Positions 18,533-30,095 of a stretch of DNA of 51,111 nucleotides are shown here, in pieces. Location of the stretch: contig JAEOTB010000115.1 in assembly GCA_016840065.1 (NCBI GenBank), positions 1-51,111 of the forward strand. Direction: 5' to 3'. A model generated the notes under the pieces. It ran no database searches, had not been told where the DNA came from, and saw only the letters and a program-made list of their open reading frames with translations. Each line of letters begins with the position of its first letter. Positions within the stretch are counted from its first letter, which is position 1. The position numbers were made by a program, and so were the translations under genes. The DNA comes from Candidatus Hermodarchaeota archaeon. Lineage in GTDB: Archaea > Asgardarchaeota > Hermodarchaeia > Hermodarchaeales > Hermodarchaeaceae.

Positions 18533-18994
18533 CTAGGATGTGGTGCCGACTTTCTCCCAGGCTTGGAATTTTCCTCGGGCGCGCTGAACAAGGACGAGTC
18601 CATATCGTTTCCAGATTTCTTCACGAGTTAAGGATTCCTCCTCAGAGGGCGTACTGCTTGAAGGTGGAGTGTGTTCCTCGGGTCTGATGGACTGGCTATA
18701 GAATATAGAATCAATTAGGTTACCAACGAGCCCTTGCTGGTACTGATCCTTGACGAAGATGAGTATCTGTTCCGTGGGAACATCCACTGGCTGCAGAGGG
18801 TGACGAGTAACGCCCTGGCTGAATGAGGGGCAGACGCCACTCATCGTTTCTTTGACAATCTCGATACAGTTTGGGTCGATGAAGAACTGGCATGTCAGGC
18901 ATTGTCGCCATCCTGCGTGGATAGCTTCTTCAAGGTTGATTTTCTTACCACAAGCAACGCAAGATATGCCGACGGTGCTCAAGTCTATTTTCAT
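18533..18994 (-). CDS. RING-variant zinc-finger protein (Nse1-RING-like), last gene of SMC operon
   Basis: C12-x2-C15-x16-C32-x2-C35-x4-D40-x2-C43-x11-C55-P-x8-H65. ATGA overlap with the KITE gene. Confidence 0.6.
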   Translation of the reverse strand: MKIDLSTVGISCVACGKKINLEEAIHAGWRQCLTCQFFIDPNCIEIVKETMSGVCPSFSQGVTRHPLQPVDVPTEQILIFVKDQYQQGLVGNLIDSIFYSQSIRPEEHTPPSSSTPSEEESLTREEIWKRYGLVLVQRARGKFQAWEKVGTTS

Positions 18995-19650
18995 CGGCTC
19001 TCACCGTCTTCTGAACCCTTTGATGAAGTTGTGCCTACTAGGTAAGTGGCGGCTGTACTGGCGATAGCCTTTCGTCGTTCTGCGTCAAACTCGAGTTCAG
19101 TCCTGGGCCCGTAGGCTATTCGGTTTGTGCTACGTTCAATGTAACCAAGATCCGCGAGGCGCCGGAGTATTCTATCCAGTTGATAACGAGAAAGGCGACC
19201 ACGCGTTACCAATGCTGCATCTAGTTCCTTCGGAGTTGTCTTTCTTGCCCGTCTCCGAGCTCCAGCATTTTCTATAGCCGCGATAATCACTCCTAGCACA
19301 GCATATTCGGGATCGGTTAGTTCGCTAGGAACTCCGTATAGTGTGCGCAGACAGTAACGAGTCTCCCGACCAAGCCGATATTCTACGAGTTCCAACCCTA
19401 GTGGAGTGATATGCTGCCGAAGTAGGCTGAAGAGCTGATTGAGCCCATCACGGTTCGTGTGCAGGGCTTCTAGTAAATCCTGTTGCTTAACACCGATGTT
19501 GAGCTGACTTTCACCGTCACGCCAACGGGCGGTGAGGGCTGCGAAGAGCTGACCAAGTAGATGCTGTTGAGCGCGTTCCTCACTTTCATCGACACCCCGG
19601 TCGGCAGTATCAACTGAGGACTCGTCTCTAGGAGTAGGTTCTTCTGTCAC
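18991..19650 (-). CDS. KITE (tandem winged-helix) protein, Nse1/Nse3-MAGE-like
   Basis: LRQHITPLGLELVE, LGVIIAAIE, LDRILRRLADLGYI and YGPRTELEF (cf. MAGE/Nse3 WGPR..E). Lies in the SMC operon. Confidence 0.75.
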   Translation of the reverse strand: MTEEPTPRDESSVDTADRGVDESEERAQQHLLGQLFAALTARWRDGESQLNIGVKQQDLLEALHTNRDGLNQLFSLLRQHITPLGLELVEYRLGRETRYCLRTLYGVPSELTDPEYAVLGVIIAAIENAGARRRARKTTPKELDAALVTRGRLSRYQLDRILRRLADLGYIERSTNRIAYGPRTELEFDAERRKAIASTAATYLVGTTSSKGSEDGESR

Positions 19651-19655
19651 TTCTA

Positions 19656-20510
19656 CTATTGAACCTCCTGACGGCGCCTAGACTCTACTGCCACAGCAGC
19701 AAAAGAGACTTCATCTGTTTTCCGCTTTGAGGGGCGAAAGGCGATGATGGATTTTCCAAGGAAGGAGGCGGATATTCCTCCATCCCTTATCATCTGACTA
19801 AGAATATCAAGTTCCCAATTCGTTAACAGCTCTGCCAGCTCGTCTATCGAATACCGCTTACCCTCAAGCTGGGCTGTGAGTTTTTCCCGGAGACCTTTCA
19901 GCTCTTCTTGGAGGAGCTGGTCGTAGGCTACCTTATGCCGAGCTAGATCCGCTCGGTCCTCAGGAGTCGACACTACACTGCTTGCCAAGGGGTTATCCCC
20001 GTCAGGCATTGTGAATTCAGGTGCAATGATTTCTCGACTCGGTAAGAATACCAAGGGCGTTGCCCGGCGTTTAACTTCTGTGGCGAAGCGGCTAATCCAG
20101 ACCTCTGGTGTTACATCAATCGCTGCAAGGACCGCGTCTCTCTGTAATTGCATCTTGGCCATATTGAGATAGCAGCGTCCGTCCAGCACATGTTCCCAAG
20201 GTGTTTCGACGAAACGATAGGCTTCAGATACTTCTTCTCGGTCACGCTCTGACTCTCTAATCTCGAAAACCTCTTGGTCCTTTAGAGCCTTCTCATACTT
20301 CTTCGATAGATTCCAAAGAGCCATCACGATACCCTTTACAACTTGCTCTTGTTTATCTGGGCTAAGCGGACCTGTTCTGTTTTGAAGCCTGTAAGATGAT
20401 AAGCTCTCAAGGGGGCAGCTTCTAGAGCAGGGCTCGTCTGCGCCGCATCTTCGGCGACACATCTCCTCCAAACTTTCCTCTGATTTCTTGGAGAGTTTCT
20501 TGTTGCGCAT
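19656..20510 (-). CDS. Putative kleisin (Nse4/ScpA-like)
   Basis: Lies between SMC and KITE, with a TAATG overlap with the SMC stop. N-terminal helices, a linker and a C-terminal winged-helix-like segment (YSIDELAELL...ILSQMIRDGGISAS). Assignment rests mainly on context. Confidence 0.55.
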   Translation of the reverse strand: MRNKKLSKKSEESLEEMCRRRCGADEPCSRSCPLESLSSYRLQNRTGPLSPDKQEQVVKGIVMALWNLSKKYEKALKDQEVFEIRESERDREEVSEAYRFVETPWEHVLDGRCYLNMAKMQLQRDAVLAAIDVTPEVWISRFATEVKRRATPLVFLPSREIIAPEFTMPDGDNPLASSVVSTPEDRADLARHKVAYDQLLQEELKGLREKLTAQLEGKRYSIDELAELLTNWELDILSQMIRDGGISASFLGKSIIAFRPSKRKTDEVSFAAVAVESRRRQEVQ

Positions 20511-23434
20511 TAGCGCTCCACTTCCCCTTTGATAAGCACGATATGGTTCATACTAGCTGGAATTTCTAAACCAACTGTCGAGGGCGCCATGAGAATGAAT
20601 TGTGGGTCTACGGTTAGATTCATTCGACTTAGCTCTAATGCCCGCTGAACAATACTGAGTACAGCAGCACGACTTGCCTCATCGAGACGCTGAGTGAACT
20701 CGTCGATGACATGTAGAGGGCTTTTTGCAAGCGTATGGAGTGCAAGGATGAATGTTTGTGTACCGAGAATCCTCTCTCCACCACTCATGTTTTCATAGGT
20801 TCGCCAAGCATCTTCCTTATTGATAGCTATTTGGATGAACAGCTCAGCACGACTTGGCTCATTCGGGTATCTTACCGTTAGGCGTACCTGTTTTAGGAAA
20901 TGGCTGAGGAGTTTGTTCATTCGCTGGTTTAGACGCTCTAGGGTTTCTTCTAGACGGCGACGCCATTCGATTATTCTTCTTTGGACATCCCCCATCAGAT
21001 TGTCAAGGTGGCGTTTGCGTTCTGCAAGATATTCTTGGAGTTGGCGTACTAATTTTTCCTGCTTTTCATAAGCCTGTCTGTCCTCTGCGGTGGCACGAAT
21101 CGTTTCAATCATCGCTTGAACTTGGATTTGTTCTTCTCGCACTTGGTTAGGAAGCCTTACCATGTCGGGTCTTGGACCTTGGGCTTCAGCTGCCTGTTGC
21201 TGTTCTTTAACTTGATTGCTTAGGTGGTTGTGTTCCTCCTCTCTGTCTCGAAGGTCTCGTGTGAGTCGTTCAATCTCGGATTCGAGTCTGTATCTTCGGT
21301 TATCCAGATTTCTTAGTTGTTCCTCAACTCTGTTGAGACGTGGGATGACCTTTGATAGTGAGTTGTCACACCGGCGATATTCCTCATCTATCCCATCAAG
21401 ACTACTACCCAATTCTGCAATTTGTTGTTCTACATCATCAATGTGCCGCTGCAAATCTGCTACCAAGATATCTCGGTCATCACCGGTTGAGCGGGCTGTT
21501 TCCGGGTGACGAAGCTCTTGAAGACGAATCTTGATCTGACTAATGTCTGAATTAACCTTCATACGATCTAAGCCGAGTACTTGTTCCTGACGCCGTAGCG
21601 CCGCTAACTTGCTTATCACACTACTTGTATCATCACCGAGACGAATTTCACGGAGCTCCCTACCCAGAGAGACTGTCACAGGCGGAGGTGGTCTGGTGAA
21701 CGCACCGATACGCAGGTAGTGACTAGCGCCATCGCTTGTGATGATATTTCCACGTAATCTTTGAGCTGCATCCGCGAGCAGATTAGGGTCTGATGCTTCG
21801 GCAACAGCGGTGTTGATAACGCGGTTTAGAAACATAACCACTCTAGGCTCTCCCTGAATGAGGTCGGCTGCCCAGCCAATGACGGGGGGAGAGATTGTGG
21901 GTCTGCGGCGGGGTTCAGACTCTTCTGAGTGGGCTCTAGCAACAAGTAGGTTTGGTTTCCGGTCTGACCAAAGACGGTCAAAAATCTCCTTAGCGCTACT
22001 AAACGCTTCACGATTGAGAGCAAGGAAAGCGTAAGCATAACGTCCTAGAGCTAGTTTCACGGCGAGTTCATATCTCTCCTGTCCTCTCTTCATCCTTATT
22101 AGAGAGAATAGGGGGCCAAGCACCTTTCGTCCAAGAGCAGCTTCGTCAAGTCCATGGCGAAATTGCTTGCAAGCGCGTAAAATCTCCGCTTCACGGCGTG
22201 AATGCCTCTGGGGCTCAACCGTAAGTTCCTCTTCTGTTGAAGCGATTTGCTGCCTAAGTGAAAGCTGCCTTTTATCCAGTTTGTCTCGCTCAGCGATGAG
22301 TTCTGCTAGTTCGGATCGGAGTGTGTCCTCCTGAAGGGAGGGTGTTTGGGTAATATCTGGTTGAGATGAGCGATAACGGGTTATCCTTGAAATAGCTTCC
22401 TTGAGTTCACTGTCGAGGGCACTTCTCTTGCCGCGCGCTTCCATTTGCTGGTCCCGAAGCACAGTCATGGTGTCTCGCAGTTTCGTCCGCTGAGAGAACA
22501 GGTCACGACGCTTCTCACTGAGTTCTTCCCGACGAGTGTCTAGCTTCTCCATCTTGGACCGCTCAGTTTCCAGACCAGTCTTCGTTTCATTAATGGAGGT
22601 TTCGAGCTGACTGATGAGCTGCTCACGGTGTACGACCTCAGCCCAAGCAGCCTCAACTGTCAATGCTTGAAACCGTTCTTGTAACTTCTGCTTCTGCTCA
22701 TAGGCCTCGAAAGCAGTTTTGAGAATCTGAAGACGTTGTTCCTCTCCACGGATTCGCTGCTGAAGTGGCGTAACATTGGATCGTGCCTGGACCACAAGCA
22801 ACCGCGCCTCTTCTAATTTCTCCATCCAATCATTAAGCCCTGTCTCGTTCAAGAGGGTCTCAAACTTCCTACGAGGTGTCTGGGATGCGAATTGGTCCAG
22901 TGTTTCCGCCTCTGTAACTGCAAGAGGTGAATCACCAAACACTCCCGCTGCCTGGAAGAGTTGACGAATATCCTGTCGACTTATTCGGCGCCCCTTGATT
23001 GTTCGCTGATTATTAACCCAGAGAGAAATCGTGTTGCTGGGGAGGATGCGCAGGCGGATTGATACCGTGTCTTGGTCGAGGAGCTTATTCATCTCCTTCT
23101 CGGGACTTCGCAAGAGACGACGTTCAGCGATGACTGGGTTGTTGAGTTCTAGAATAACCTCAGCGTACTTGTCGAAGGGACCGATGAATTTGATGTTACG
23201 TTGACGCTGAACACGTTTTGATTCTAAACCAATGATTAGTAGCAACGCATCAAGAATCAGGGTTTTACCACTGCCATTAGACCCTGTTATCAGAGTAATT
23301 GGTGAACGGTCTAGATGAACCGTTGTATCTCGATGAATGACAAAATTGACCAGCCTAATACTTCGAAAAACCATGCGAGTGGCGGGTGGGGATTCAGCTG
23401 CCGGAGAGGACGCCACCGCTTCTTTACTGGTCAT
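20510..23434 (-). CDS. SMC-family ATPase, Smc5/6-like
   Basis: IRLVNFVIH, Walker A GSNGSGKT, two long coiled coils, hinge VLGPLFSLI...AVKLALG, signature MSGGER, Walker B SPLHVIDEFTQRLD and QFILMAP (no His, as in Smc5/6). Confidence 0.88.
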   Translation of the reverse strand: MTSKEAVASSPAAESPPATRMVFRSIRLVNFVIHRDTTVHLDRSPITLITGSNGSGKTLILDALLLIIGLESKRVQRQRNIKFIGPFDKYAEVILELNNPVIAERRLLRSPEKEMNKLLDQDTVSIRLRILPSNTISLWVNNQRTIKGRRISRQDIRQLFQAAGVFGDSPLAVTEAETLDQFASQTPRRKFETLLNETGLNDWMEKLEEARLLVVQARSNVTPLQQRIRGEEQRLQILKTAFEAYEQKQKLQERFQALTVEAAWAEVVHREQLISQLETSINETKTGLETERSKMEKLDTRREELSEKRRDLFSQRTKLRDTMTVLRDQQMEARGKRSALDSELKEAISRITRYRSSQPDITQTPSLQEDTLRSELAELIAERDKLDKRQLSLRQQIASTEEELTVEPQRHSRREAEILRACKQFRHGLDEAALGRKVLGPLFSLIRMKRGQERYELAVKLALGRYAYAFLALNREAFSSAKEIFDRLWSDRKPNLLVARAHSEESEPRRRPTISPPVIGWAADLIQGEPRVVMFLNRVINTAVAEASDPNLLADAAQRLRGNIITSDGASHYLRIGAFTRPPPPVTVSLGRELREIRLGDDTSSVISKLAALRRQEQVLGLDRMKVNSDISQIKIRLQELRHPETARSTGDDRDILVADLQRHIDDVEQQIAELGSSLDGIDEEYRRCDNSLSKVIPRLNRVEEQLRNLDNRRYRLESEIERLTRDLRDREEEHNHLSNQVKEQQQAAEAQGPRPDMVRLPNQVREEQIQVQAMIETIRATAEDRQAYEKQEKLVRQLQEYLAERKRHLDNLMGDVQRRIIEWRRRLEETLERLNQRMNKLLSHFLKQVRLTVRYPNEPSRAELFIQIAINKEDAWRTYENMSGGERILGTQTFILALHTLAKSPLHVIDEFTQRLDEASRAAVLSIVQRALELSRMNLTVDPQFILMAPSTVGLEIPASMNHIVLIKGEVER

Positions 23435-23750: not shown

Positions 23751-24074
23751 ATGACAAGCGATGAAGGCTTTTGGAGATCAATCATAGTTGACGTAGAACC
23801 CCGTCAGAAGGAGTTCCGCATCGGCATAGACGAAGACACCAGCATCGGAGAAGTCATCCGAACCCTAGTCACCCAAGCCCGTGATGAGGGTATTAGTGTG
23901 GATGAGTGGGCAAAGGCGAAAATCGGTGACCAACGAGCAGAGTTTGTGCTCATCCGGAAAGCACCTGAACCCACACGGCTCAGCCCCACCGCCACCTTTG
24001 GTGACTTGGAACCCAAAGTTGTCGATGATGAATTCTTCCTCATGGACGTGATCCCAGAAGTTGGAATTAAATAG
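23751..24074 (+). CDS. Ubiquitin-like (beta-grasp) protein with C-terminal VG-IK
   Basis: Beta-beta-alpha pattern (SIIVDV, EFRIGI, TSIGEVIRTL), FVLIRK, LSPTATFGDL (cf. Ub LEDGRTLSDY) and a terminal strand ending EVG-IK. Directly upstream of the E2. Confidence 0.75.
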   Translation: MTSDEGFWRSIIVDVEPRQKEFRIGIDEDTSIGEVIRTLVTQARDEGISVDEWAKAKIGDQRAEFVLIRKAPEPTRLSPTATFGDLEPKVVDDEFFLMDVIPEVGIK

Positions 24075-24104
24075 GCTCTATCATGATTTGGATACGGGAA
24101 GCAC

Positions 24105-24854
24105 ATGACTCGAGCAGTTTTTTCTACGGAATTATTCAACGCGCGTGTGGAAACACAGATACAAACCTTCTTCGACACTATGGCCAATCTCTACGGGCAG
24201 CGAGGTTGGTCACCTGAACAGCCTAGGCGCCGAGATTTGAAGTGGGAAACCGAAGACTTCACAGTAGAGATTAATGGTCGTTACCGGGATGGTGCCTACA
24301 AGCAGTTTCACTTCACTATGCGGAACCTCCCAGGATACTTCCGTTGCCCTGGATCTCTCACCGACCCGAATGCTATCCGATGGGAACACCGCTTTTCCTT
24401 CGACTTACCCCGTGAGTATCCACAGAATATTGGGTCTATCCGTCCTTCAGCTGAAACCCCCCTTTATCATCCACGGCTATCCGCAGGCGGGAAAGGACTT
24501 GCCTGCTACTCGGTTAGAGGAGAGCTAGACCGCATCCTTGAAGACCTACCCTTCTTTGTATTACTCAAACCTGATCGTGTTGAGCCGCCATCCCGTTTTT
24601 CCTCTGACCATGGGTTGAATACCCAGGCTATGCATTGGTACGAGCGAAACGCCGATGGGATTGTGGCAACCCTCGAACGTCTTTGGAGAGAGCGCCATAA
24701 AGATCCAGACACATCAGAAGGTGAAAGGCGTAGTGGGCGCGTACAAATCATTACCTCTCCACGGGAAGCTCAACCCGGTCGTCGGAGCCCACGTATCCTT
24801 GATGAAAAGGAGCATCAAACTGGGCGAATCAGAATTTTAGATGATGAAGATTAG
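24105..24854 (+). CDS. E2/UBC-fold ubiquitin-conjugating-like enzyme
   Basis: FSFDLPREYP, TPLYHPRL (HPN variant), GLAC with Cys134, and LNTQAMHWY. Disordered C-tail. Confidence 0.8.
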   Translation: MTRAVFSTELFNARVETQIQTFFDTMANLYGQRGWSPEQPRRRDLKWETEDFTVEINGRYRDGAYKQFHFTMRNLPGYFRCPGSLTDPNAIRWEHRFSFDLPREYPQNIGSIRPSAETPLYHPRLSAGGKGLACYSVRGELDRILEDLPFFVLLKPDRVEPPSRFSSDHGLNTQAMHWYERNADGIVATLERLWRERHKDPDTSEGERRSGRVQIITSPREAQPGRRSPRILDEKEHQTGRIRILDDED

Positions 24855-24870
24855 AGGTGCCTCAAGCATC

Positions 24871-25143
24871 ATGCCAAGTCGGTCTCCAAAGGACGAAGAA
24901 GAAGCTGAAGAAACAAGAACTGAACAGCCAGCGTCTGAACAAGATAGTGCTGAAGATACAGAGGAAGAGCAACTCGTCTTAGAGGAGGAAGACACGTCAC
25001 AGGCCCATCGTAGTCGGATTGTCATATTGGGAGAGAGGGACATCCCCTTCGAAGAGGAGCGACCTCCGAACCTCTTGCCAAACTTTCAAGTGAAGGTTCA
25101 TCGAGTGAGCAGACCAGAGAAGCCAAGGGAGGTTGGACTTTGA
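24871..25143 (+). CDS. Small acidic disordered protein
   Basis: Glu-rich ORF filling the gap between E2 and RING, with a TTGA overlap with the next gene. Alternative start at 24841. Confidence 0.6.
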   Translation: MPSRSPKDEEEAEETRTEQPASEQDSAEDTEEEQLVLEEEDTSQAHRSRIVILGERDIPFEEERPPNLLPNFQVKVHRVSRPEKPREVGL

Positions 25144-25535
25144 GTGTCCATGGTGCAGCACAGGTTAAGTGCGCGATTTGCGATGACGCCGTTTCACTAG
25201 AAAATGCACGGTTGGACTGGTGGATTTGCACCAGTTGCGGAAGCTATTTGTGTCCGCGATGCCACACACTGTTTACTAGGAGTGGTGATGAACTCTGCCC
25301 TGGAACTATAGTTCGAGGAGCTGAGCCGCACCAACCCCATCTCACGCGATTCCTTTCGCCTCGACCTAATCCAGAACCGCCAGCACAACATGGTAGCCCC
25401 TCTGTTCGTATCTTGGAAGATGTTCCTCGTCGACCAAGCCCAAAGCCTGGAGGCAGGGTAATCTTTCTTGATGACAGAGAGCCTGGAGAAGAGGAGCGAG
25501 AGACTAAAACACAAGATGATGAAGATGCCGGCTAA
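25140..25535 (+). CDS. RING-variant zinc-finger protein (candidate E3)
   Basis: C11-x2-C14-x15-C30-x2-C33-x4-C38-x2-C41-x11-C53-P-x9-H64, followed by a Pro-rich/acidic tail. Confidence 0.68.
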   Translation: MSVHGAAQVKCAICDDAVSLENARLDWWICTSCGSYLCPRCHTLFTRSGDELCPGTIVRGAEPHQPHLTRFLSPRPNPEPPAQHGSPSVRILEDVPRRPSPKPGGRVIFLDDREPGEEERETKTQDDEDAG

Positions 25536-27120
25536 CTTACCTGTCCAAATGGAGATTTCCGCCCCTTCCCGAGCCAAGGGTTTACCTCTTGTGAAGCCGA
25601 AAGAAAGTGTAAAAATTGTCCTAACGCGCTCCTTTACTGGTCAAACAGGCGAGTATGCTAATGGTGTTATATTCGTTCGCGACCCATTCGGAACCAATAT
25701 CGCTAGGATACCTTTCAAATTCGGTGAATTTACTAAAGGGACTTTTACTGTTCAGATAAAAGAGGAACTTCTTTCAGGAATCTACACGGCTGCAGTAGCT
25801 TTCGAAGGGGAAAAGGACCTCACCAGCGCTAGAGGAGGATCTGGCGAAGCGCTATTTGGCTGCTTCCGAGTAGAAAAAGGCCTCCCACCAATCATCTCGC
25901 ACAAGGTTACCTACAAGGCTAAAATAACGAATGAGGGAGGCAGGCAGGATGACTACGGGAAAGGCACTTCGGGTGGTATCGACCTCTTCGATGTATCGGT
26001 GTTTCTTGCTACACCAATTTCGATTCCTTTTCGCCAAGAAGTTATCAAACTTAGACCTAACCCTTCAACAGGCGCAGAATCCAATGACTTGGTCGGTAAT
26101 AATTGGGTTCGTTATAGTTTGAAACATTTAGCCTTTGGTAAGAGCTTTACATGTGGCTATACTGCTCTAGTCCGGAATCACTCTGTAAGATATGCGCTTC
26201 CTCCAGTGAGTAATGCTGCAATCCCTCATGAGATCAGGGATTACACTAAGCCAGAGAAGCATATCGAGTCTGATCACCGTCGCATAAAGGAGATGGCTAA
26301 CCAATTAGCAAAGACCTATCGAAATCATAGCTCCTTTGTTGCTGCTGCCATGCGAACTGTCTTTAGAACCTTGAAATATAAGCCTCAACGTTCAGAGCTG
26401 GGAGCCGCTTATGCAATAGCGAATAAGATAGGCGATTGCACGGAATATGCCGCGCTTACCGCTGCCCTTTGTCGGGCAAATGGTATTCCAGCAAGACTTC
26501 AAGCGGGTTTCGGATTTGGTGGAGCCACGTGGGAACGCCACGCGTGGGCTGAGGTTTGGCTCCAAGGCTTCTGGGTCCCTGTAGACTCCACTTGGTATGG
26601 TCGTGACGGAACTCTGGGCATAACAAGCCGTCACATCCCTTTGATTGTTGGAAATTGGATGAGCAGCCGTATCCGCCAAGAATTCAACATTCGCTGGAAG
26701 ACCAAAGGAGGGAGAGCTAGTCCGCCAACTTTAGATGCGAAATGGAAGGTTGAGCGACTGAGTTCTACCCGCGCCGCACCTGGACCTCGCCTGAGGCCTT
26801 CACCTATTCGGCTTAGGGTCAAAGCACCAGATGCTGTACCTCGTGGCACTCTTCTGAAACTTGGCATCAAGATCAGCCCGGTCCCAAAGGTTTCCGCAGC
26901 TCTGACTATGATGGCGATATCTGCTACAATTTCCGATAGCGAGATGGACCGCATCGTTGCGCTGAAACCGATTCCAATAAGCATTTCTAAGCCAATGGAT
27001 ACAACCATGGAGTTACAGATGCCCCGTTGCATTCCCAAAGCAAAGCTCTCCCTTAGAGTTTGGCTCGACGGAAAACCCACAGAAGCAACGTGGGAAAAAG
27101 CTATTGGATTAATCCAATAG
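25516..27120 (+). CDS. Transglutaminase-like (Cys-His-Asp) protein with flanking beta-sandwich domains
   Basis: GDCTEYA.L..ALCRANGIPARL, HAWAEVW and WVPVDST. No obvious signal peptide. Confidence 0.9.
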   Translation: MMKMPANLPVQMEISAPSRAKGLPLVKPKESVKIVLTRSFTGQTGEYANGVIFVRDPFGTNIARIPFKFGEFTKGTFTVQIKEELLSGIYTAAVAFEGEKDLTSARGGSGEALFGCFRVEKGLPPIISHKVTYKAKITNEGGRQDDYGKGTSGGIDLFDVSVFLATPISIPFRQEVIKLRPNPSTGAESNDLVGNNWVRYSLKHLAFGKSFTCGYTALVRNHSVRYALPPVSNAAIPHEIRDYTKPEKHIESDHRRIKEMANQLAKTYRNHSSFVAAAMRTVFRTLKYKPQRSELGAAYAIANKIGDCTEYAALTAALCRANGIPARLQAGFGFGGATWERHAWAEVWLQGFWVPVDSTWYGRDGTLGITSRHIPLIVGNWMSSRIRQEFNIRWKTKGGRASPPTLDAKWKVERLSSTRAAPGPRLRPSPIRLRVKAPDAVPRGTLLKLGIKISPVPKVSAALTMMAISATISDSEMDRIVALKPIPISISKPMDTTMELQMPRCIPKAKLSLRVWLDGKPTEATWEKAIGLIQ

Positions 27121-27126
27121 GGAGTA

Positions 27127-27987
27127 TTACTTACGTTTGCTTCGACAAAACGCTTCGCTGCACCGTGGATTCCGCATTATAGGCCCACTAGTAGATTGAT
27201 GGTGGCGAAGATCGTACTTGATGAATCGCCCAAATGCAGGTTCAAGTCCTTCTCGCCAGTGATTGGTCTGCCTCCACTCCTCTAATCCAACAACAACCTT
27301 GGTTGCCTCCCAAGCCATTATCGCGCCAACAACTGAGGTTATGAAGCTTATCATGGGGAACTTGGGTAATGTGTCGACAAAGAAAGGGTCACAACTAGCG
27401 CGCACCTGCTCTGCCACAAGTCTATCAACGAATTCTTTACTCCAAGAACAAACCATACAAGCAGTGTCTGGAGGTGTGAGGACCTCCACAGAAACGAAGT
27501 CTAGACCCATTGCTCCATTGATGACTGGGCGGGGTGGCTGAAGACTGAGGTTCTTGGCATTAAGCAGATACCTGGCGTAGTGGTTATCGACACCCACCAG
27601 AACAAGGTCAACATCCCACACCTTCTCTTTCGCTTCCTGAATGGGTACAGGATAGGGTTCTACAATAGTATCTGTTGCTAGTTCCCCGAGTCGTTCTGCA
27701 ACCGCATCTACCTTAAACTTCACATCATGGTCCCCAGGCCGGAAGAAAACGCACCGGTTTAGGTTTGAAGCAGCTACTTTATCTGGGTCGACGAGTAATA
27801 TTTTCCCGATGCCTAGCAGACCGAGATTCTTGCAGACCTCATTCCCCACGGCGCCAGCCCCGACCATGAGCACAGTTGCATTTTGTATTCTCACCAGGTT
27901 ATCGGTGCCTAGCCAGCGGCGTGTTCTGTCATGACGGTCACGTTCGAAGAATCCTAGGTCTACGCGTGTCGGAGGTTCCTCAGGCAC
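27127..27987 (-). CDS. E1-like (ThiF/UBA) activating enzyme
   Basis: GAGAVGNEVCKNL, SNLNR, GVDN..AR, Zn site CMVC...C..C, and candidate catalytic Cys199 (RASCD). Confidence 0.9.
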   Translation of the reverse strand: MPEEPPTRVDLGFFERDRHDRTRRWLGTDNLVRIQNATVLMVGAGAVGNEVCKNLGLLGIGKILLVDPDKVAASNLNRCVFFRPGDHDVKFKVDAVAERLGELATDTIVEPYPVPIQEAKEKVWDVDLVLVGVDNHYARYLLNAKNLSLQPPRPVINGAMGLDFVSVEVLTPPDTACMVCSWSKEFVDRLVAEQVRASCDPFFVDTLPKFPMISFITSVVGAIMAWEATKVVVGLEEWRQTNHWREGLEPAFGRFIKYDLRHHQSTSGPIMRNPRCSEAFCRSKRK

Positions 27988-27990
27988 GGT

Positions 27991-28629
27991 CTATACACCC
28001 CCTTCCAAGGAGCCCTCGAGCTCGTCAGATGGTACAGTGCCAACGGGGACCTTGGGGAGATATGTGCACCATTCTACGCGTTCTAGCTGTAATGCATCAC
28101 TTTCGTTTGAGCGGCGCAGCATGTAGACCTTGAAGAAACGGCTGAGAGGATCTATGAGGAAGAAAACATTACCTTCCGCACAAAAAGGGGTTTTAAAAAA
28201 TGTGTTAAGGTCGGTGGAGGAGAACTGAGGATTGCCGCCGAATGGATGAGAATGCCATAGACCAATGACTCGAGGCGTATGTGGATTTGACCCGTACCTA
28301 TCATGTAAGGCTAACCTGTATTCCAGGATTCCCTCCGGGGTGAACCTGGCATAGGTCATGCTCGATTCCACTTGTCCTGTTGCCCAATCTGTCACCCTGA
28401 CATATTTTGTGCCTTGCCATTGACGACGAAAACCGAGAATCACCCCAAGTGCCTCATGCGGGGGTTTGCGTTGCGCCTCTCGTAGACAATAGTCGAAGAT
28501 GTCCTGACAAGTCCGTTCGTAAATATAGACTGGGTAGACCGTGTCCTCTGATAGCGCATCCTTTTCTTTTGTCTGTGTTTCTGGAGGTGGTTGAGATGGG
28601 GCTCGGTCTGGCAAATTCCTCTTCTCCAT
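27991..28629 (-). CDS. JAB/MPN+ (JAMM) metallopeptidase
   Basis: E59 (HEALG) and WHSHP-x-SSTD (H126, H128, S137, D140). Confidence 0.9.
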   Translation of the reverse strand: MEKRNLPDRAPSQPPPETQTKEKDALSEDTVYPVYIYERTCQDIFDYCLREAQRKPPHEALGVILGFRRQWQGTKYVRVTDWATGQVESSMTYARFTPEGILEYRLALHDRYGSNPHTPRVIGLWHSHPFGGNPQFSSTDLNTFFKTPFCAEGNVFFLIDPLSRFFKVYMLRRSNESDALQLERVEWCTYLPKVPVGTVPSDELEGSLEGGV

Positions 28630-30095
28630 CAGTTCTCTTTGTTCCCTAATCTAGTGCTCCAAGGGTAACGTTGCATTATGTTATCTATTAGCCGGTTCAC
28701 TTTCTCCTCTTCTGATGTTTCAGAATAAGCCAAGAATATTACTTGACCGCCACGGCTTCGCTTCATCTTCTGATATATCGTCTTGGTGGTGTTCACTACA
28801 TCGCAGATTATTAGGAGGTCGGTTTCTGGGAGGTCGAGGTCGCGTTCGCCGACAGGAGAGAGGATGATTGCCGCTGGGGGTTGGGCTGCTTTGAACTCCG
28901 CTAGTACTGCTTGTTTATCTCTGGTTCGTCCAGTAAGGGTAAAGGACTGTACTCCAGCCCTGCTGAGGAGACGGTTGACCTCAGAAACAACATGGAGATA
29001 TGAGCTGATGATAACGGTTTTACCACTCATATTTACGAGCTGGCAGACCTTGAGGGCCTTTGGTGTGACCTTTGGCCATTCACTCTGAATTCGCTCGACA
29101 TCAATCTGAGGTGCGAGAGCTGGGTGGTGAAGAAACCTACGGAAGCTGCTAACCGCCATGCCGTAGAGATACTTACGAATCATTAGCAGACCCGAATAGC
29201 GTTGAGCCAGCTCTTCAGAGATTGGCAGCTCGTCAAGGACAAGGTGGAGAAGACGGACTGACTCGGGTAAAGCGTCAGATTCGATGTCTCTTTCCTCTCT
29301 CACTATCTGATATATTTCATCCCTAGTTGACTTGATTAAGGCGTCCAATACAAGGGAAATCGCCTTGATGAGGTTGTCCTGAACCGCTACGACATTGATT
29401 ACTGTTGGCTCAATGTAGTCCTCCACATCGGAGCCGCTCAGCTCATCCATGGAGATTACTTCCGCCCTAGGGATGAACTGACTAAGCGTTTTCAGCTCCT
29501 CTCGTATCTGAAGTTGAGCATTATCAAGGACCACATGATCATCACGGAGCGTACCCGACATCCCTATTATCCAGCGATCCTTGAAGAACTCAAGTAGATA
29601 GCTCCAAGGTTGTACTAGAACGTTCTGCCGCCCCACACGACGAAGAATAGTGTCAACCTCGTTTATTACAAGGGCATCAAATTGCTGGGGCGTGAATTCT
29701 CCTCTTTTCAGTATGTTAGTGAGTACCCTCGCAGTACACAATACCACCCTCGATTTTTCCAGCATCCACCGCCGTTGCCGACCCTGCACTCGTTGGGTCA
29801 TTGCCCCCAGCCCTGAAACCCCTCCATACTCCTTCTCTAAATATTGAGCTGTTTCTTGCAGCGAGGAAGTGGAATTCACTGTCAAGATGAAGCGCGTTTC
29901 AGGAAACAGCTCCGAGACGAGTTTGTAGGTAAGAACACGTTTCCCTAACCCGCAATCCAATTCAATGAGTATGTTCTTGTCTCGATTTTCCTTGATGCGC
30001 CGAAGAATGTATTCTTGGTATCCCCGTAAGTCTAGTTTGCTAGTTCCTGGTGAAGCAGGTTTTGAGGGAGACCTTCGGGGTTGTGGCATCATCAT
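28629..30095 (-). CDS. SF2 Hef/FANCM-like helicase with degenerate ATPase motifs
   Basis: LRGYQ, DCGLGKR, INEVD, GMSGT, SPVGERDLDLPETDLLI and YQKMKRSR. One-base overlap with the JAB start. Confidence 0.75.
   Translation of the reverse strand: MMMPQPRRSPSKPASPGTSKLDLRGYQEYILRRIKENRDKNILIELDCGLGKRVLTYKLVSELFPETRFILTVNSTSSLQETAQYLEKEYGGVSGLGAMTQRVQGRQRRWMLEKSRVVLCTARVLTNILKRGEFTPQQFDALVINEVDTILRRVGRQNVLVQPWSYLLEFFKDRWIIGMSGTLRDDHVVLDNAQLQIREELKTLSQFIPRAEVISMDELSGSDVEDYIEPTVINVVAVQDNLIKAISLVLDALIKSTRDEIYQIVREERDIESDALPESVRLLHLVLDELPISEELAQRYSGLLMIRKYLYGMAVSSFRRFLHHPALAPQIDVERIQSEWPKVTPKALKVCQLVNMSGKTVIISSYLHVVSEVNRLLSRAGVQSFTLTGRTRDKQAVLAEFKAAQPPAAIILSPVGERDLDLPETDLLIICDVVNTTKTIYQKMKRSRGGQVIFLAYSETSEEEKVNRLIDNIMQRYPWSTRLGNKEN

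What the first reader, a model, noticed from the sequence alone, without database searches (positions are those of the whole stretch)
24730..25485. Repeated SIM-like motifs in disordered tails of three consecutive Ubl-operon proteins
Seen: the E2 tail has GRVQIITS, PRILDEKE and GRIRILDDED*. The acidic protein has SRIVILGERD. The RING tail has SVRILEDV and GRVIFLDDRE. All six follow an approximate R-[IV]-x-[IF]-[LI]-[DE] pattern in low-complexity sequence. Established: SUMO-interacting motifs are [VI]-x-[VI]-[VI] cores flanked by acidic residues, and RING plus multiple SIMs defines SUMO-targeted ligases such as RNF4. Inference: these are non-covalent Ubl-binding motifs, giving an archaeal SIM-like reader system possibly suited to chain building or condensate formation.
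Basis: partly seen in the sequence, partly recalled or inferred. Interest (0 to 1): 0.82.

Follow-up and report, generated by a model that had tools for sequence, protein, structure and literature searches.

The report
Shared docking motif, Asgard Ubl operon
Three neighbouring proteins of a rare ubiquitin-like tagging system in an Asgard (Hermodarchaeota) archaeon carry six copies of one short, conserved, strand-forming motif in their floppy tails; it looks like the motifs that read SUMO in eukaryotes and probably docks the proteins on a shared partner, most likely the ubiquitin-like tag, but binding has not been shown.

Summary
All six peptides lie where stated, in the C-terminal tails of an E2-fold protein, a small acidic protein and a RING-like zinc-finger protein. 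The core [VI]-x-[IVF]-[LI] occurs 5 times in the three tails against 0.16 expected (0 of 20,000 shuffles). Hydrophobic positions are 94-100% conserved in 18 Hermodarchaeota loci, while linkers vary.

The motif reaches well beyond this family. About 19 of the 25 closest representatives of this rare E2 family end in basic-psi-x-psi-L-(D/E). The small protein keeps its copy even where the E2 has no tail, and orphan E2 genes keep theirs.

In this genome the motif in disordered context is confined to the operon's own enzymes, so there is no proteome-wide reader network. E1, JAMM and the Ubl never carry it.

Best reading: a shared docking motif that works like a SIM, LIR or UFM1-interacting motif. 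The partner is probably the Ubl (about 0.45), then E1 or the E2 core.

The RNF4-type, chain-building and condensate ideas have no support. The scan has reported this same motif on four other genomes.

The parts
23751..24074 (+). Ubl (107 aa, ends ...PEVG-IK): the candidate partner of the motifs
   Evidence: Its best Pfam match is a weak one to YukD, E 0.047. The language-model look-alikes are all ubiquitin-superfold domains. It ends in VG plus 0-3 residues in 18 orthologues and is 90% identical across the family. Net charge is -9.
24105..24854 (+). E2-fold protein (249 aa): core residues 1-201, disordered tail 202-249
   Evidence: No Pfam family matches. The AF2 core exceeds pLDDT 90. The 50 best-ranked Foldseek PDB hits listed are all UBC/E2 enzymes, E from 2e-4, TM about 0.5 by target. 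The H122-P-R and C134 positions are invariant.
24735..24758 (+). E2 tail motif 1, GRVQIITS
   Evidence: G-R-V-x-I-[LI] is 88-100% conserved in the family.
24789..24812 (+). E2 tail motif 2 (half-motif), PRILDEKE
   Evidence: P-[RQK]-[IV]-L is conserved, with P, I and L at 100%. It is lost in some distant relatives such as P0030.
24822..24851 (+). E2 tail motif 3, GRIRILDDED, at the C-terminus
   Evidence: [VI]-[RK]-I-[LI]-[DE] is 94-100% conserved. A C-terminal copy is present in about 19 of the 25 closest representatives of the E2 family.
24841..25143 (+). Small acidic protein (100 aa as the longest ORF; orthologues suggest the start may be Met11 at 24871)
   Evidence: It is conserved between the E2 gene and the next gene in every locus examined. 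The family alignment is A5. No Pfam family matches.
25012..25041 (+). Small-protein motif SRIVILGERD, the first element of a roughly 32-residue conserved module
   Evidence: The module runs through ...PPN[FLY]... and a second strand ending in His, to about 25107. It is conserved down to 20-30% identical relatives. It is present even where the E2 is tail-less, in L025 and L026.
25140..25535 (+). RING-like binuclear zinc-finger protein (131 aa): finger about residues 11-67, disordered tail 75-131
   Evidence: C11, C14, C30, C33, C38, C41, C53 and H64 are invariant. Pfam gives only sub-threshold RING-type hits: zf-UDP E 7.7e-5 and zf_RING-like E 0.016.
25401..25424 (+). RING tail motif 1, SVRILEDV
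   Evidence: S-x-V-x-[ILF]-L-x-[DN]-V is conserved, with V, I and L at 100%.
25452..25481 (+). RING tail motif 2, GRVIFLDDRE
   Evidence: G-[RK]-V-[IV]-[IVF]-[LF]-x-[DE] is 100% conserved at its core. Its spacing to motif 1 is fixed to within one residue in 18 orthologues. It is the only copy kept in the distant RING-like ORF of L029.
25516..27120 (+). Transglutaminase-like protein (context; carries no tail motif here)
   Evidence: Pfam Transglut_core, E 3e-20. There is no conserved motif in the family alignment. Net charge is +31.
27127..27987 (-). E1 (ThiF-type, 286 aa; context and rival partner)
   Evidence: Pfam ThiF, E 1e-35. It has no tail motif here or in the distant loci.
27991..28629 (-). 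JAMM/Prok-JAB protease (context)
   Evidence: Pfam Prok-JAB, E 4e-10. It has no tail motif.

Best explanation
The six peptides are copies of one short linear docking motif with the consensus (G/S)-(R/K)-[VI]-x-[IVF]-[LI]-(D/E)-(D/E). It is displayed in the disordered C-terminal tails of three enzymes or cofactors of an Asgard ubiquitin-like conjugation system: three copies on the E2, one on the small protein and two on the RING-like protein. On binding, the motif most likely folds into a beta-strand that adds to an exposed edge strand of one common partner. That partner is most probably the system's own Ubl, free, E2-linked or already conjugated. The E2, its small cofactor and the RING-like ligase would thus each hold a Ubl non-covalently. 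This is how SIMs work on SAE2, PIAS, ZNF451 and yeast Nse2, AIM/LIR motifs on ATG3/4/7, and the UFM1-interacting sequence on UBA5. Shown: the motif is real, non-random, disordered, conserved deep into the E2 family, and restricted to these client proteins. Inferred: strand addition, and the identity of the partner.
For: The motif is real and non-random: 5 core matches against 0.16 expected, 0 of 20,000 shuffles. It forms conserved islands in variable linkers in 18 family loci. In an exhaustive profile search the E2 family has only 56 representatives among 1.84 billion proteins. By my reading, about 19 of the 25 closest representatives carry 1-3 copies of basic-psi-x-psi-L-(D/E) at or near the C-terminus. 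Examples are endings such as KKVVILED, KVLILD, GKVKILE and GGIRII; P0056, at 40% identity, has three copies. The small protein keeps its copy in every system seen, including two whose E2 has no tail (L025 and L026; A5). RING-like ORFs of two other lineages keep one or two copies (L029 and L060). Orphan E2 genes with no system neighbour keep the motif (L061 and L030). The partner is therefore something every E2 of this family meets, namely the Ubl or E1, rather than the transglutaminase, the RING-like protein or the SMC complex. The motif persists in loci lacking the transglutaminase, RING or SMC genes (L025, L026, L059). The Ubl, E1 and JAMM never carry it. The tail is disordered and does not fold back on the E2 core in the AF2 model. 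The form matches the SIM definition, with acidic residues after the core as in parallel SIMs (PMC12751080). Yeast Nse2 uses a C-terminal SIM after its SP-RING to hold the backside SUMO (PMC8636563). A RING-type E3 and a cofactor have a known reason to bind the modifier but none to bind E1.
Against: No direct test of binding was possible. A read-through Ubl-E2 fusion (P0057), modelled with a block alignment, left the tail at pLDDT 31-37 with no strand. The Ubl part itself reached only pLDDT 38-66 in that model, so this is uninformative rather than negative. The Ubl shows no sequence relation to SUMO, ATG8 or UFM1, and whether it has a groove was not examined. The conserved basic residue before the core is not a SIM feature. 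The Ubl varies too little (90% identity within the family) for a covariation test. E1 and the E2 core are not excluded.
Confidence: 0.45

Rival explanations
1. The motif docks its carriers on the E1, or on the E1-Ubl adenylate complex. The E1 here is a minimal ThiF-type enzyme without a ubiquitin-fold domain. A tail motif on the E2 could replace that domain's E2-recruiting role, as flexible regions do in the ATG7-ATG3 and UBA5-UFC1 pairs.
For: E1 is 252-286 aa and matches the ThiF domain only. Orphan E2 genes keep the motif, and every E2 must meet E1. E1 itself never carries the motif.
Against: This does not explain why the RING-like protein and the small protein carry the same motif, in conserved copy number and spacing. 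Tail-less E2s exist next to an E1 of the same type (L025 and L026), so the tail is not needed for E1-E2 transfer in those systems. Not tested structurally.
Confidence: 0.15
2. The motif is an E2-binding peptide. The RING-like protein and the small protein use it to hold the E2 core, for example on its backside sheet edge. The E2's own tail copies then act in cis or in trans as auto-inhibitors, competitors or oligomerisation elements.
For: An E3 and a cofactor must bind the E2. Backside-binding peptides on E3s or cofactors are known in eukaryotes (G2BR of gp78, U7BR of Cue1; from my own knowledge, although structures with them appear among the hits). The small protein is universal next to this E2 family.
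Against: With an 18-sequence alignment, AF2 did not dock the E2's own three copies on its core: tail pLDDT 30-38 and no strand. The known E2-backside peptides are helices, not strands. Not tested in trans.
Confidence: 0.12
3. The motif docks the enzymes on a hub outside the core cascade, so as to localise conjugation. Candidates are the neighbouring Smc5/6-like complex, the strongly basic transglutaminase-like protein, or DNA or chromatin.
For: The operon is divergently coupled to an SMC-kleisin-KITE-RING operon in all ten extended family loci and in L059. The transglutaminase-like protein has net charge +31. The motif flanks are rich in Arg and Lys.
Against: The motif persists on E2s and small proteins in loci without an adjacent SMC, transglutaminase or RING gene (L025, L026, L021/L022 and the orphans L061 and L030). 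Both short and long transglutaminase forms coexist with unchanged tails.
Confidence: 0.1
4. The motifs bind each other. The amphipathic strands of the three tails zip into an intermolecular beta-sheet that assembles an E2-small protein-RING complex or a condensate.
For: The motifs are multivalent (3 + 1 + 2 copies), sit in disordered charged tails, and have beta-prone cores.
Against: AF2 formed no hairpin among the three copies in the E2 tail. Many family members have a single terminal copy, which cannot build a network. The strictly conserved basic-before, acidic-after polarity suggests a defined binding site.
Confidence: 0.06
5. The similarity is a by-product of low-complexity composition and has no function.
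For: The tails are compositionally biased, and SIM-like patterns are short.
Against: 0 of 20,000 shuffles reach the observed count. Hydrophobic positions are 94-100% conserved while linkers drift. The motif recurs in relatives at 40% identity or less.
Confidence: 0.01

Closest known systems
SUMO-interacting motifs (SIMs) on SUMO-pathway enzymes and ligases (SAE2, PIAS/Siz, RanBP2, ZNF451)
   Same: Both have a four-residue aliphatic core with at least three of V/I/L, flanked by an acidic stretch. Both lie in regions that are disordered when unbound, and both occur on the pathway's own enzymes, often in several copies (PMC12751080). Acidic residues after the core correspond to the parallel-SIM arrangement.
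   Different: The modifier here is not detectably related to SUMO. A conserved Arg or Lys directly precedes the core, and the x position is often Arg or Lys. Binding is not shown. In this genome the motif is confined to the operon's enzymes, whereas SIMs are spread over hundreds of effectors.
Yeast Nse2/Mms21, the SP-RING SUMO ligase of Smc5/6, with its C-terminal SIM2 and loop SIM1 (PMC8636563)
   Same: Both are zinc-finger ligases associated with an Smc5/6-type complex and carry SIM-type motifs, one at the extreme C-terminal tail. In Nse2 these clamp the donor and the E2-backside SUMO and are needed for activity. The RING-like protein here has two tail motifs at fixed spacing and is encoded next to an Smc5/6-like operon.
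   Different: The Nse2 SIM2 is restricted to the S. cerevisiae clade (PMC8636563), so this is analogy, not descent. The finger here is not an SP-RING. No binding or activity data exist.
ZNF451 tandem SIMs
   Same: Both have two closely spaced motifs with a spacer of constrained length. In ZNF451 an eight-residue spacer is critical, and the two SIMs hold the donor and the backside SUMO (PMC12751080).
   Different: The spacer here is 13-14 residues, and only D-V-x-R and G-G in it are conserved. The PRRP of this window is not conserved. No function has been shown.
RNF4-type SUMO-targeted ubiquitin ligases
   Same: Both combine a zinc finger of RING type with more than one SIM-like motif in one polypeptide.
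   Different: RNF4 reads one modifier (poly-SUMO) and writes another (ubiquitin), with SIMs N-terminal to a canonical RING (from my own knowledge). Here there is one modifier in the operon, the motifs are C-terminal, the finger is non-canonical, and the same motif sits on the E2 and a cofactor.
ATG8-interacting motifs (AIM/LIR) and the UFM1-interacting sequence of UBA5
   Same: They share the principle: a short strand-forming motif in a flexible region of E1, E2 or protease recruits the pathway's own Ubl by beta-strand addition. Minimal E1s without a ubiquitin-fold domain depend on such motifs (from my own knowledge).
   Different: AIM/LIR motifs need an aromatic residue at position 1, which is absent here. 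The carriers differ (E2, cofactor and E3 rather than E1).

Membership tests
SUMO-interacting motif (SIM) | Four-residue hydrophobic core with at least three V/I/L | tested here: met
   Five of the six copies match [VI]x[IVF][LI]; the sixth (PRIL) has only two aliphatic residues, I and L.
SUMO-interacting motif (SIM) | Acidic or phosphorylatable stretch next to the core | tested here: met
   D or E follows the core in five of the six copies; GRVQIITS is the exception, although many orthologues have Glu or Asp there. This is conserved in orthologues.
SUMO-interacting motif (SIM) | Lies in a region that is disordered when unbound | tested here: met
   The E2 tail has pLDDT 30-38 and no secondary structure. 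All three tails have few hydrophobic residues outside the motifs.
SUMO-interacting motif (SIM) | Binds the beta2/alpha1 groove of the modifier by beta-strand addition | not testable with these tools
The read-through Ubl-E2 fusion model showed no docking but modelled the Ubl poorly.
SUMO-interacting motif (SIM) | The partner is a SUMO-family protein | tested here: not met
   The Ubl gives only a weak YukD match, E 0.047. A PDB profile search gives no hit at E up to 10. Look-alikes are generic ubiquitin-fold domains.
SUMO-targeted ubiquitin ligase (RNF4 type) | Canonical RING domain | tested here: inconclusive
   Eight invariant Cys/His ligands are present, but all Pfam RING-type hits fall below their cut-offs. 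No structure was modelled.
SUMO-targeted ubiquitin ligase (RNF4 type) | Reads one modifier and conjugates a different one | not tested
   The operon encodes a single Ubl. A separate ubiquitin/ESCRT cluster exists on contig C69, but nothing links the two.
AIM/LIR (ATG8-interacting motif) | Aromatic residue at position 1 of [WFY]-x-x-[LIV] | tested here: not met
   Position 1 is V or I in all copies and in the orthologues.
UBC/E2 fold (for the protein carrying three motifs) | UBC fold with an HPN-type motif and a catalytic Cys | tested here: met
   The 50 best-ranked Foldseek PDB hits listed are all E2 enzymes. H122-P-R and C134 are invariant. No Pfam UQ_con match was found, so this is a divergent E2-like family.

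The most novel reading that the evidence does not exclude
The motifs are true functional counterparts of SIMs. They bind a groove on this Asgard Ubl by strand addition. The two fixed-spacing copies on the RING-like protein, together with the E2's own copies, clamp donor and backside Ubl on the E2, as in Nse2 and ZNF451. The Smc5/6-linked cascade of Hermodarchaeota and other Asgard archaea would then already work mechanistically like a SUMO pathway, with modifier-motif recognition predating eukaryotes.
Probability: 0.3. Interest if true: 0.85.

Novelty: new variant of a known kind. Interest (0 to 1): 0.6.

Why it matters
Short modifier-binding motifs (SIM, LIR, UFIM) give eukaryotic Ubl pathways their wiring, and they are regarded as a eukaryotic layer on top of the E1-E2-E3 chemistry. 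My searches of the held library found no paper describing such a motif in an archaeal system. Here a motif of the same form is a conserved hallmark of a rare Asgard E2 family and its partners, in an operon tied to an Smc5/6-like complex. If it binds the Ubl, non-covalent modifier reading on pathway enzymes was present in the archaeal relatives of eukaryotes. The proteins are small and should be easy to express, so the idea can be tested directly. If it binds E1 or the E2 instead, it still defines how a minimal cascade without a ubiquitin-fold domain assembles.

Tried and rejected

2. Substitute test. The Ubl and E2 genes are in the same frame, so I read through the two stops (TAG=Q, TGA=G; P0057). 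I modelled the 367-residue fusion with a block alignment (A3). The tail stayed at pLDDT 31-37 with no strand, but the Ubl part was itself poorly modelled (pLDDT 38-66). This gives no verdict.

3. Rosetta-stone search for longer proteins containing the small-protein module (A5, 'longer'): none found, which is weak evidence.

4. Proteome-wide enrichment. A strict regular expression gives 27 hits against 5-12 in shuffles. The excess is Walker B and GTPase G1 strands, not disordered motifs, so it was rejected as evidence of a reader network.

5. A seventh motif in the transglutaminase-like protein (SPIRLRVKA). It aligns to the first strand of a C-terminal domain and is not conserved as a motif. 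Only the distant L029 transglutaminase has motif-like stretches in a linker.

6. Resemblance of PRRP between the two RING motifs to an inter-SIM spacer element: it is not conserved.

7. Charge covariation between the Ubl and the motif flanks, a lead from earlier finding e1-4689077. The Ubls I looked at are acidic, but net charge was computed only for this window's Ubl (-9). Flanks are basic before the core in every lineage seen. There was no variation to exploit.

8. PDB sequence search with the Ubl profile: no hit.
Full report
WHAT IS THERE

The window comes from an Asgard archaeon. Close homologues carry NCBI names such as Promethearchaeota and Candidatus Hermodarchaeota/Hermodarchaeum.

The finding lies in a plus-strand run of overlapping or closely spaced genes:
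- Ubl, 23751-24074
- an E2-fold protein, 24105-24854
- a small acidic protein, 24841-25143
- a RING-like zinc-finger protein, 25140-25535
- a transglutaminase-like protein, to 27120

This run converges on helicase-JAMM-E1 on the minus strand (27127-30095). It diverges from an SMC-kleisin-KITE-RING operon (18533-23434).

Pfam recognises the ThiF E1, the Prok-JAB protease and the transglutaminase core. It gives only sub-threshold RING-type hits for the finger, a weak YukD hit for the Ubl, and nothing for the E2 or the small protein.

The E2 identity rests on structure. The AF2 core exceeds pLDDT 90. The 50 best-ranked Foldseek PDB matches listed are all UBC enzymes. An H-P-R motif and a Cys are invariant.

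THE OBSERVATION

All six peptides are present at the stated places. They are not a composition artefact:
- The core [VI]x[IVF][LI] occurs five times in the three tails. Shuffles give a mean of 0.16 and a maximum of 3, with 0 of 20,000 reaching the observed count.
- All 8 hydrophobic residues of the E2 tail, and 7 of the 8 in the RING tail, lie inside the motifs.
- The E2 tail is disordered in the model: pLDDT 30-38, no secondary structure, no fold-back onto the core.

CONSERVATION

In 18 orthologous loci of the same family, at 65-83% E2 identity, the motifs are islands in drifting linkers.
- Residue-class conservation is 0.84-0.89 in motif columns against 0.52-0.53 elsewhere in the tails. Hydrophobic positions score 94-100%.
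- Copy number (3, 1, 2) is kept.
- The spacing of the two RING copies is fixed to within one residue.

An exhaustive profile search of 1.84 billion representatives finds only 56 members of this E2 family.
- By my reading of their C-termini, about 19 of the 25 closest members end in one to three copies of basic-psi-x-psi-L-(D/E), often as the very last residues (see also P0056 and P0030).

THE SMALL PROTEIN

It is not just acidic filler. It belongs to a conserved family with a module of about 32 residues. The module begins with the motif, continues through an invariant P-P-N-type turn, and ends with a second strand-like stretch and a His. The part N-terminal of the module varies from 0 to about 130 residues (A5).

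This protein sits next to the E2 in all but three of the distant loci I fetched:
- L021 and L022: Ubl-E2-small-transglutaminase
- L025: E1-Ubl-E2-small
- L026: E1-small-Ubl-E2
- L027: a Ubl-E2 fusion followed by the small protein
- L029: JAMM-E1-Ubl-E2-small-RING-transglutaminase
- L059: SMC operon-JAMM-E1-Ubl-E2-small
- L060: E2-small-RING-transglutaminase

The exceptions are the two orphan E2 loci (L030, L061) and the fusion locus L028. L024 and L062 are too short to tell.

WHO CARRIES THE MOTIF AND WHO DOES NOT

Carriers:
- the E2 (0-3 copies)
- the small protein (always one copy)
- the RING-like protein (1-2 copies, in three lineages)
- the transglutaminase-like protein, in one distant lineage only (L029) and not in this family

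Never carriers: the Ubl, E1 and JAMM.

Three further facts narrow the partner:
- Two E2s lacking a tail still have a motif-bearing small protein beside them.
- Two orphan E2 genes with no system neighbour keep the terminal motif.
- The motif persists in loci without an adjacent transglutaminase, RING or SMC gene.

Together these facts argue that the partner is a component every E2 of the family meets, namely the Ubl or E1. They argue against the transglutaminase, the RING-like protein and the SMC complex.

I used a crude gene set of 2,671 ORFs from the 84%-complete genome.
- A seven-residue motif pattern gives 63 hits. The four with the most disordered context are all in this operon. The rest are Walker B strands and GTPase G1 strands.
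- Of 3,887 bare-core matches, only nine have flanks with at most 10% hydrophobic residues, and three of these are in the operon.

The motif therefore marks the system's own enzymes, not a wider set of readers.

MECHANISM

The form matches the published SIM description: an aliphatic core, an acidic stretch after it, and disorder before binding. That arrangement corresponds to parallel SIMs (PMC12751080).

Eukaryotic precedents for such motifs on pathway enzymes are many:
- SAE2, PIAS and RanBP2.
- ZNF451, whose two SIMs with a critical spacer hold the donor and the backside SUMO (PMC12751080).
- Yeast Nse2, the Smc5/6 ligase, whose extreme C-terminal SIM holds the backside SUMO and is needed for activity (PMC8636563).
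- The ATG8 and UFM1 pathways use analogous motifs on E1, E2 and proteases (my own knowledge).

A RING-type ligase and an E2 cofactor have an established reason to hold the modifier and none to hold E1. I therefore rank the Ubl first (about 0.45), then E1 (0.15), the E2 core (0.12), an outside hub (0.10) and self-association (0.06).

BINDING WAS NOT TESTED

- As a substitute I used the fact that the Ubl and E2 genes share a frame. I modelled the read-through fusion with a block alignment. The tail did not dock, but the Ubl part was poorly modelled, so the result carries no weight either way.

WHAT IS NOT SUPPORTED

- The RNF4/STUbL reading needs two modifiers and a canonical RING. The operon has one Ubl, and the finger is non-canonical.
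- Chain building and condensates are conjecture.
- The Ubl has no detectable sequence relation to SUMO. Its look-alikes are generic ubiquitin-fold domains. 'SIM' is therefore a statement about how the motif may work, not about family membership.
- The motif also differs from SIMs in having a conserved Arg or Lys just before the core.

PRIOR WORK

Full-text searches found no paper describing such a motif in an archaeal Ubl system. A preprint on SMC evolution treats the Nse1 RING and Nse2 as eukaryotic additions (10.1101/2024.01.07.573240).

Within this scan the same motif was reported on four other genomes, with the same conclusion that binding is unproven.
- the family-wide census of E2 C-termini
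- the tail-less and orphan E2 cases, which narrow the partner to the Ubl or E1
- the definition of the small-protein module
- the proteome scan
- the failed fusion test

VERDICT

This is a real, conserved docking motif of SIM-like form, and a new variant of a known kind. The partner is unproven and is most likely the Ubl.

Noticed in passing
window 23751-24854: The Ubl and E2 genes lie in the same reading frame, separated only by TAG, three codons, TGA and six codons. Distant relatives P0071 and P0079 are natural Ubl-E2 fusions joined at a VVGG junction, so the Ubl must be cut out by a protease there.
   Followed up: partly
window 24841-25143; alignment A5: The 'acidic protein' belongs to a conserved, Pfam-less family. 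Its module of about 32 residues is the motif, then a P-P-N turn, then a second strand ending in His. It may be a bipartite adaptor, like the detached tail of a minimal E1.
   Followed up: partly
window 25516-27120; loci L031-L040: The transglutaminase-like protein is strongly basic (net +31). Within one family it occurs in a long form (about 535 aa, with extra N- and C-terminal domains) and a short form (about 295 aa).
   Followed up: partly
loci L021, L022, L025, L026, L059: The conserved core of systems built on this E2 family is Ubl + E2 + small protein, with E1 nearby or elsewhere. The RING-like protein, the transglutaminase, JAMM and the SMC operon are variable additions.
   Followed up: partly
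G000 contig C69, about 44000-51500: A separate ubiquitin/zinc-finger/ESCRT-type cluster with a Vps4-like ATPase lies here. Its 245-aa protein (C69:48042-48776, minus strand) has two motif-like stretches (YIQVLE, AVLVLP) in an acidic N-terminal tail.
   Followed up: no
G000 contig C126:22897-23202 (minus strand): A 102-aa hyper-charged protein has GIIDIL in a disordered context, followed by Glu/Lys repeats and a Lys/Arg/Gly-rich end.
   Followed up: no
G000 contigs C29:2617-23943 and C9:9089-15325: Two giant proteins (7,109 and 2,079 aa) share an RVWFL(D/E)D stretch about 230 and 85 residues from the C-terminus. It is probably part of a folded domain.
   Followed up: no
window 18533-18994 (minus strand): The second RING-like protein, in the SMC operon, has no tail motif. 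A RING2-like ORF also lies just upstream of the JAMM gene in two distant lineages, L029 and L059.
   Followed up: partly
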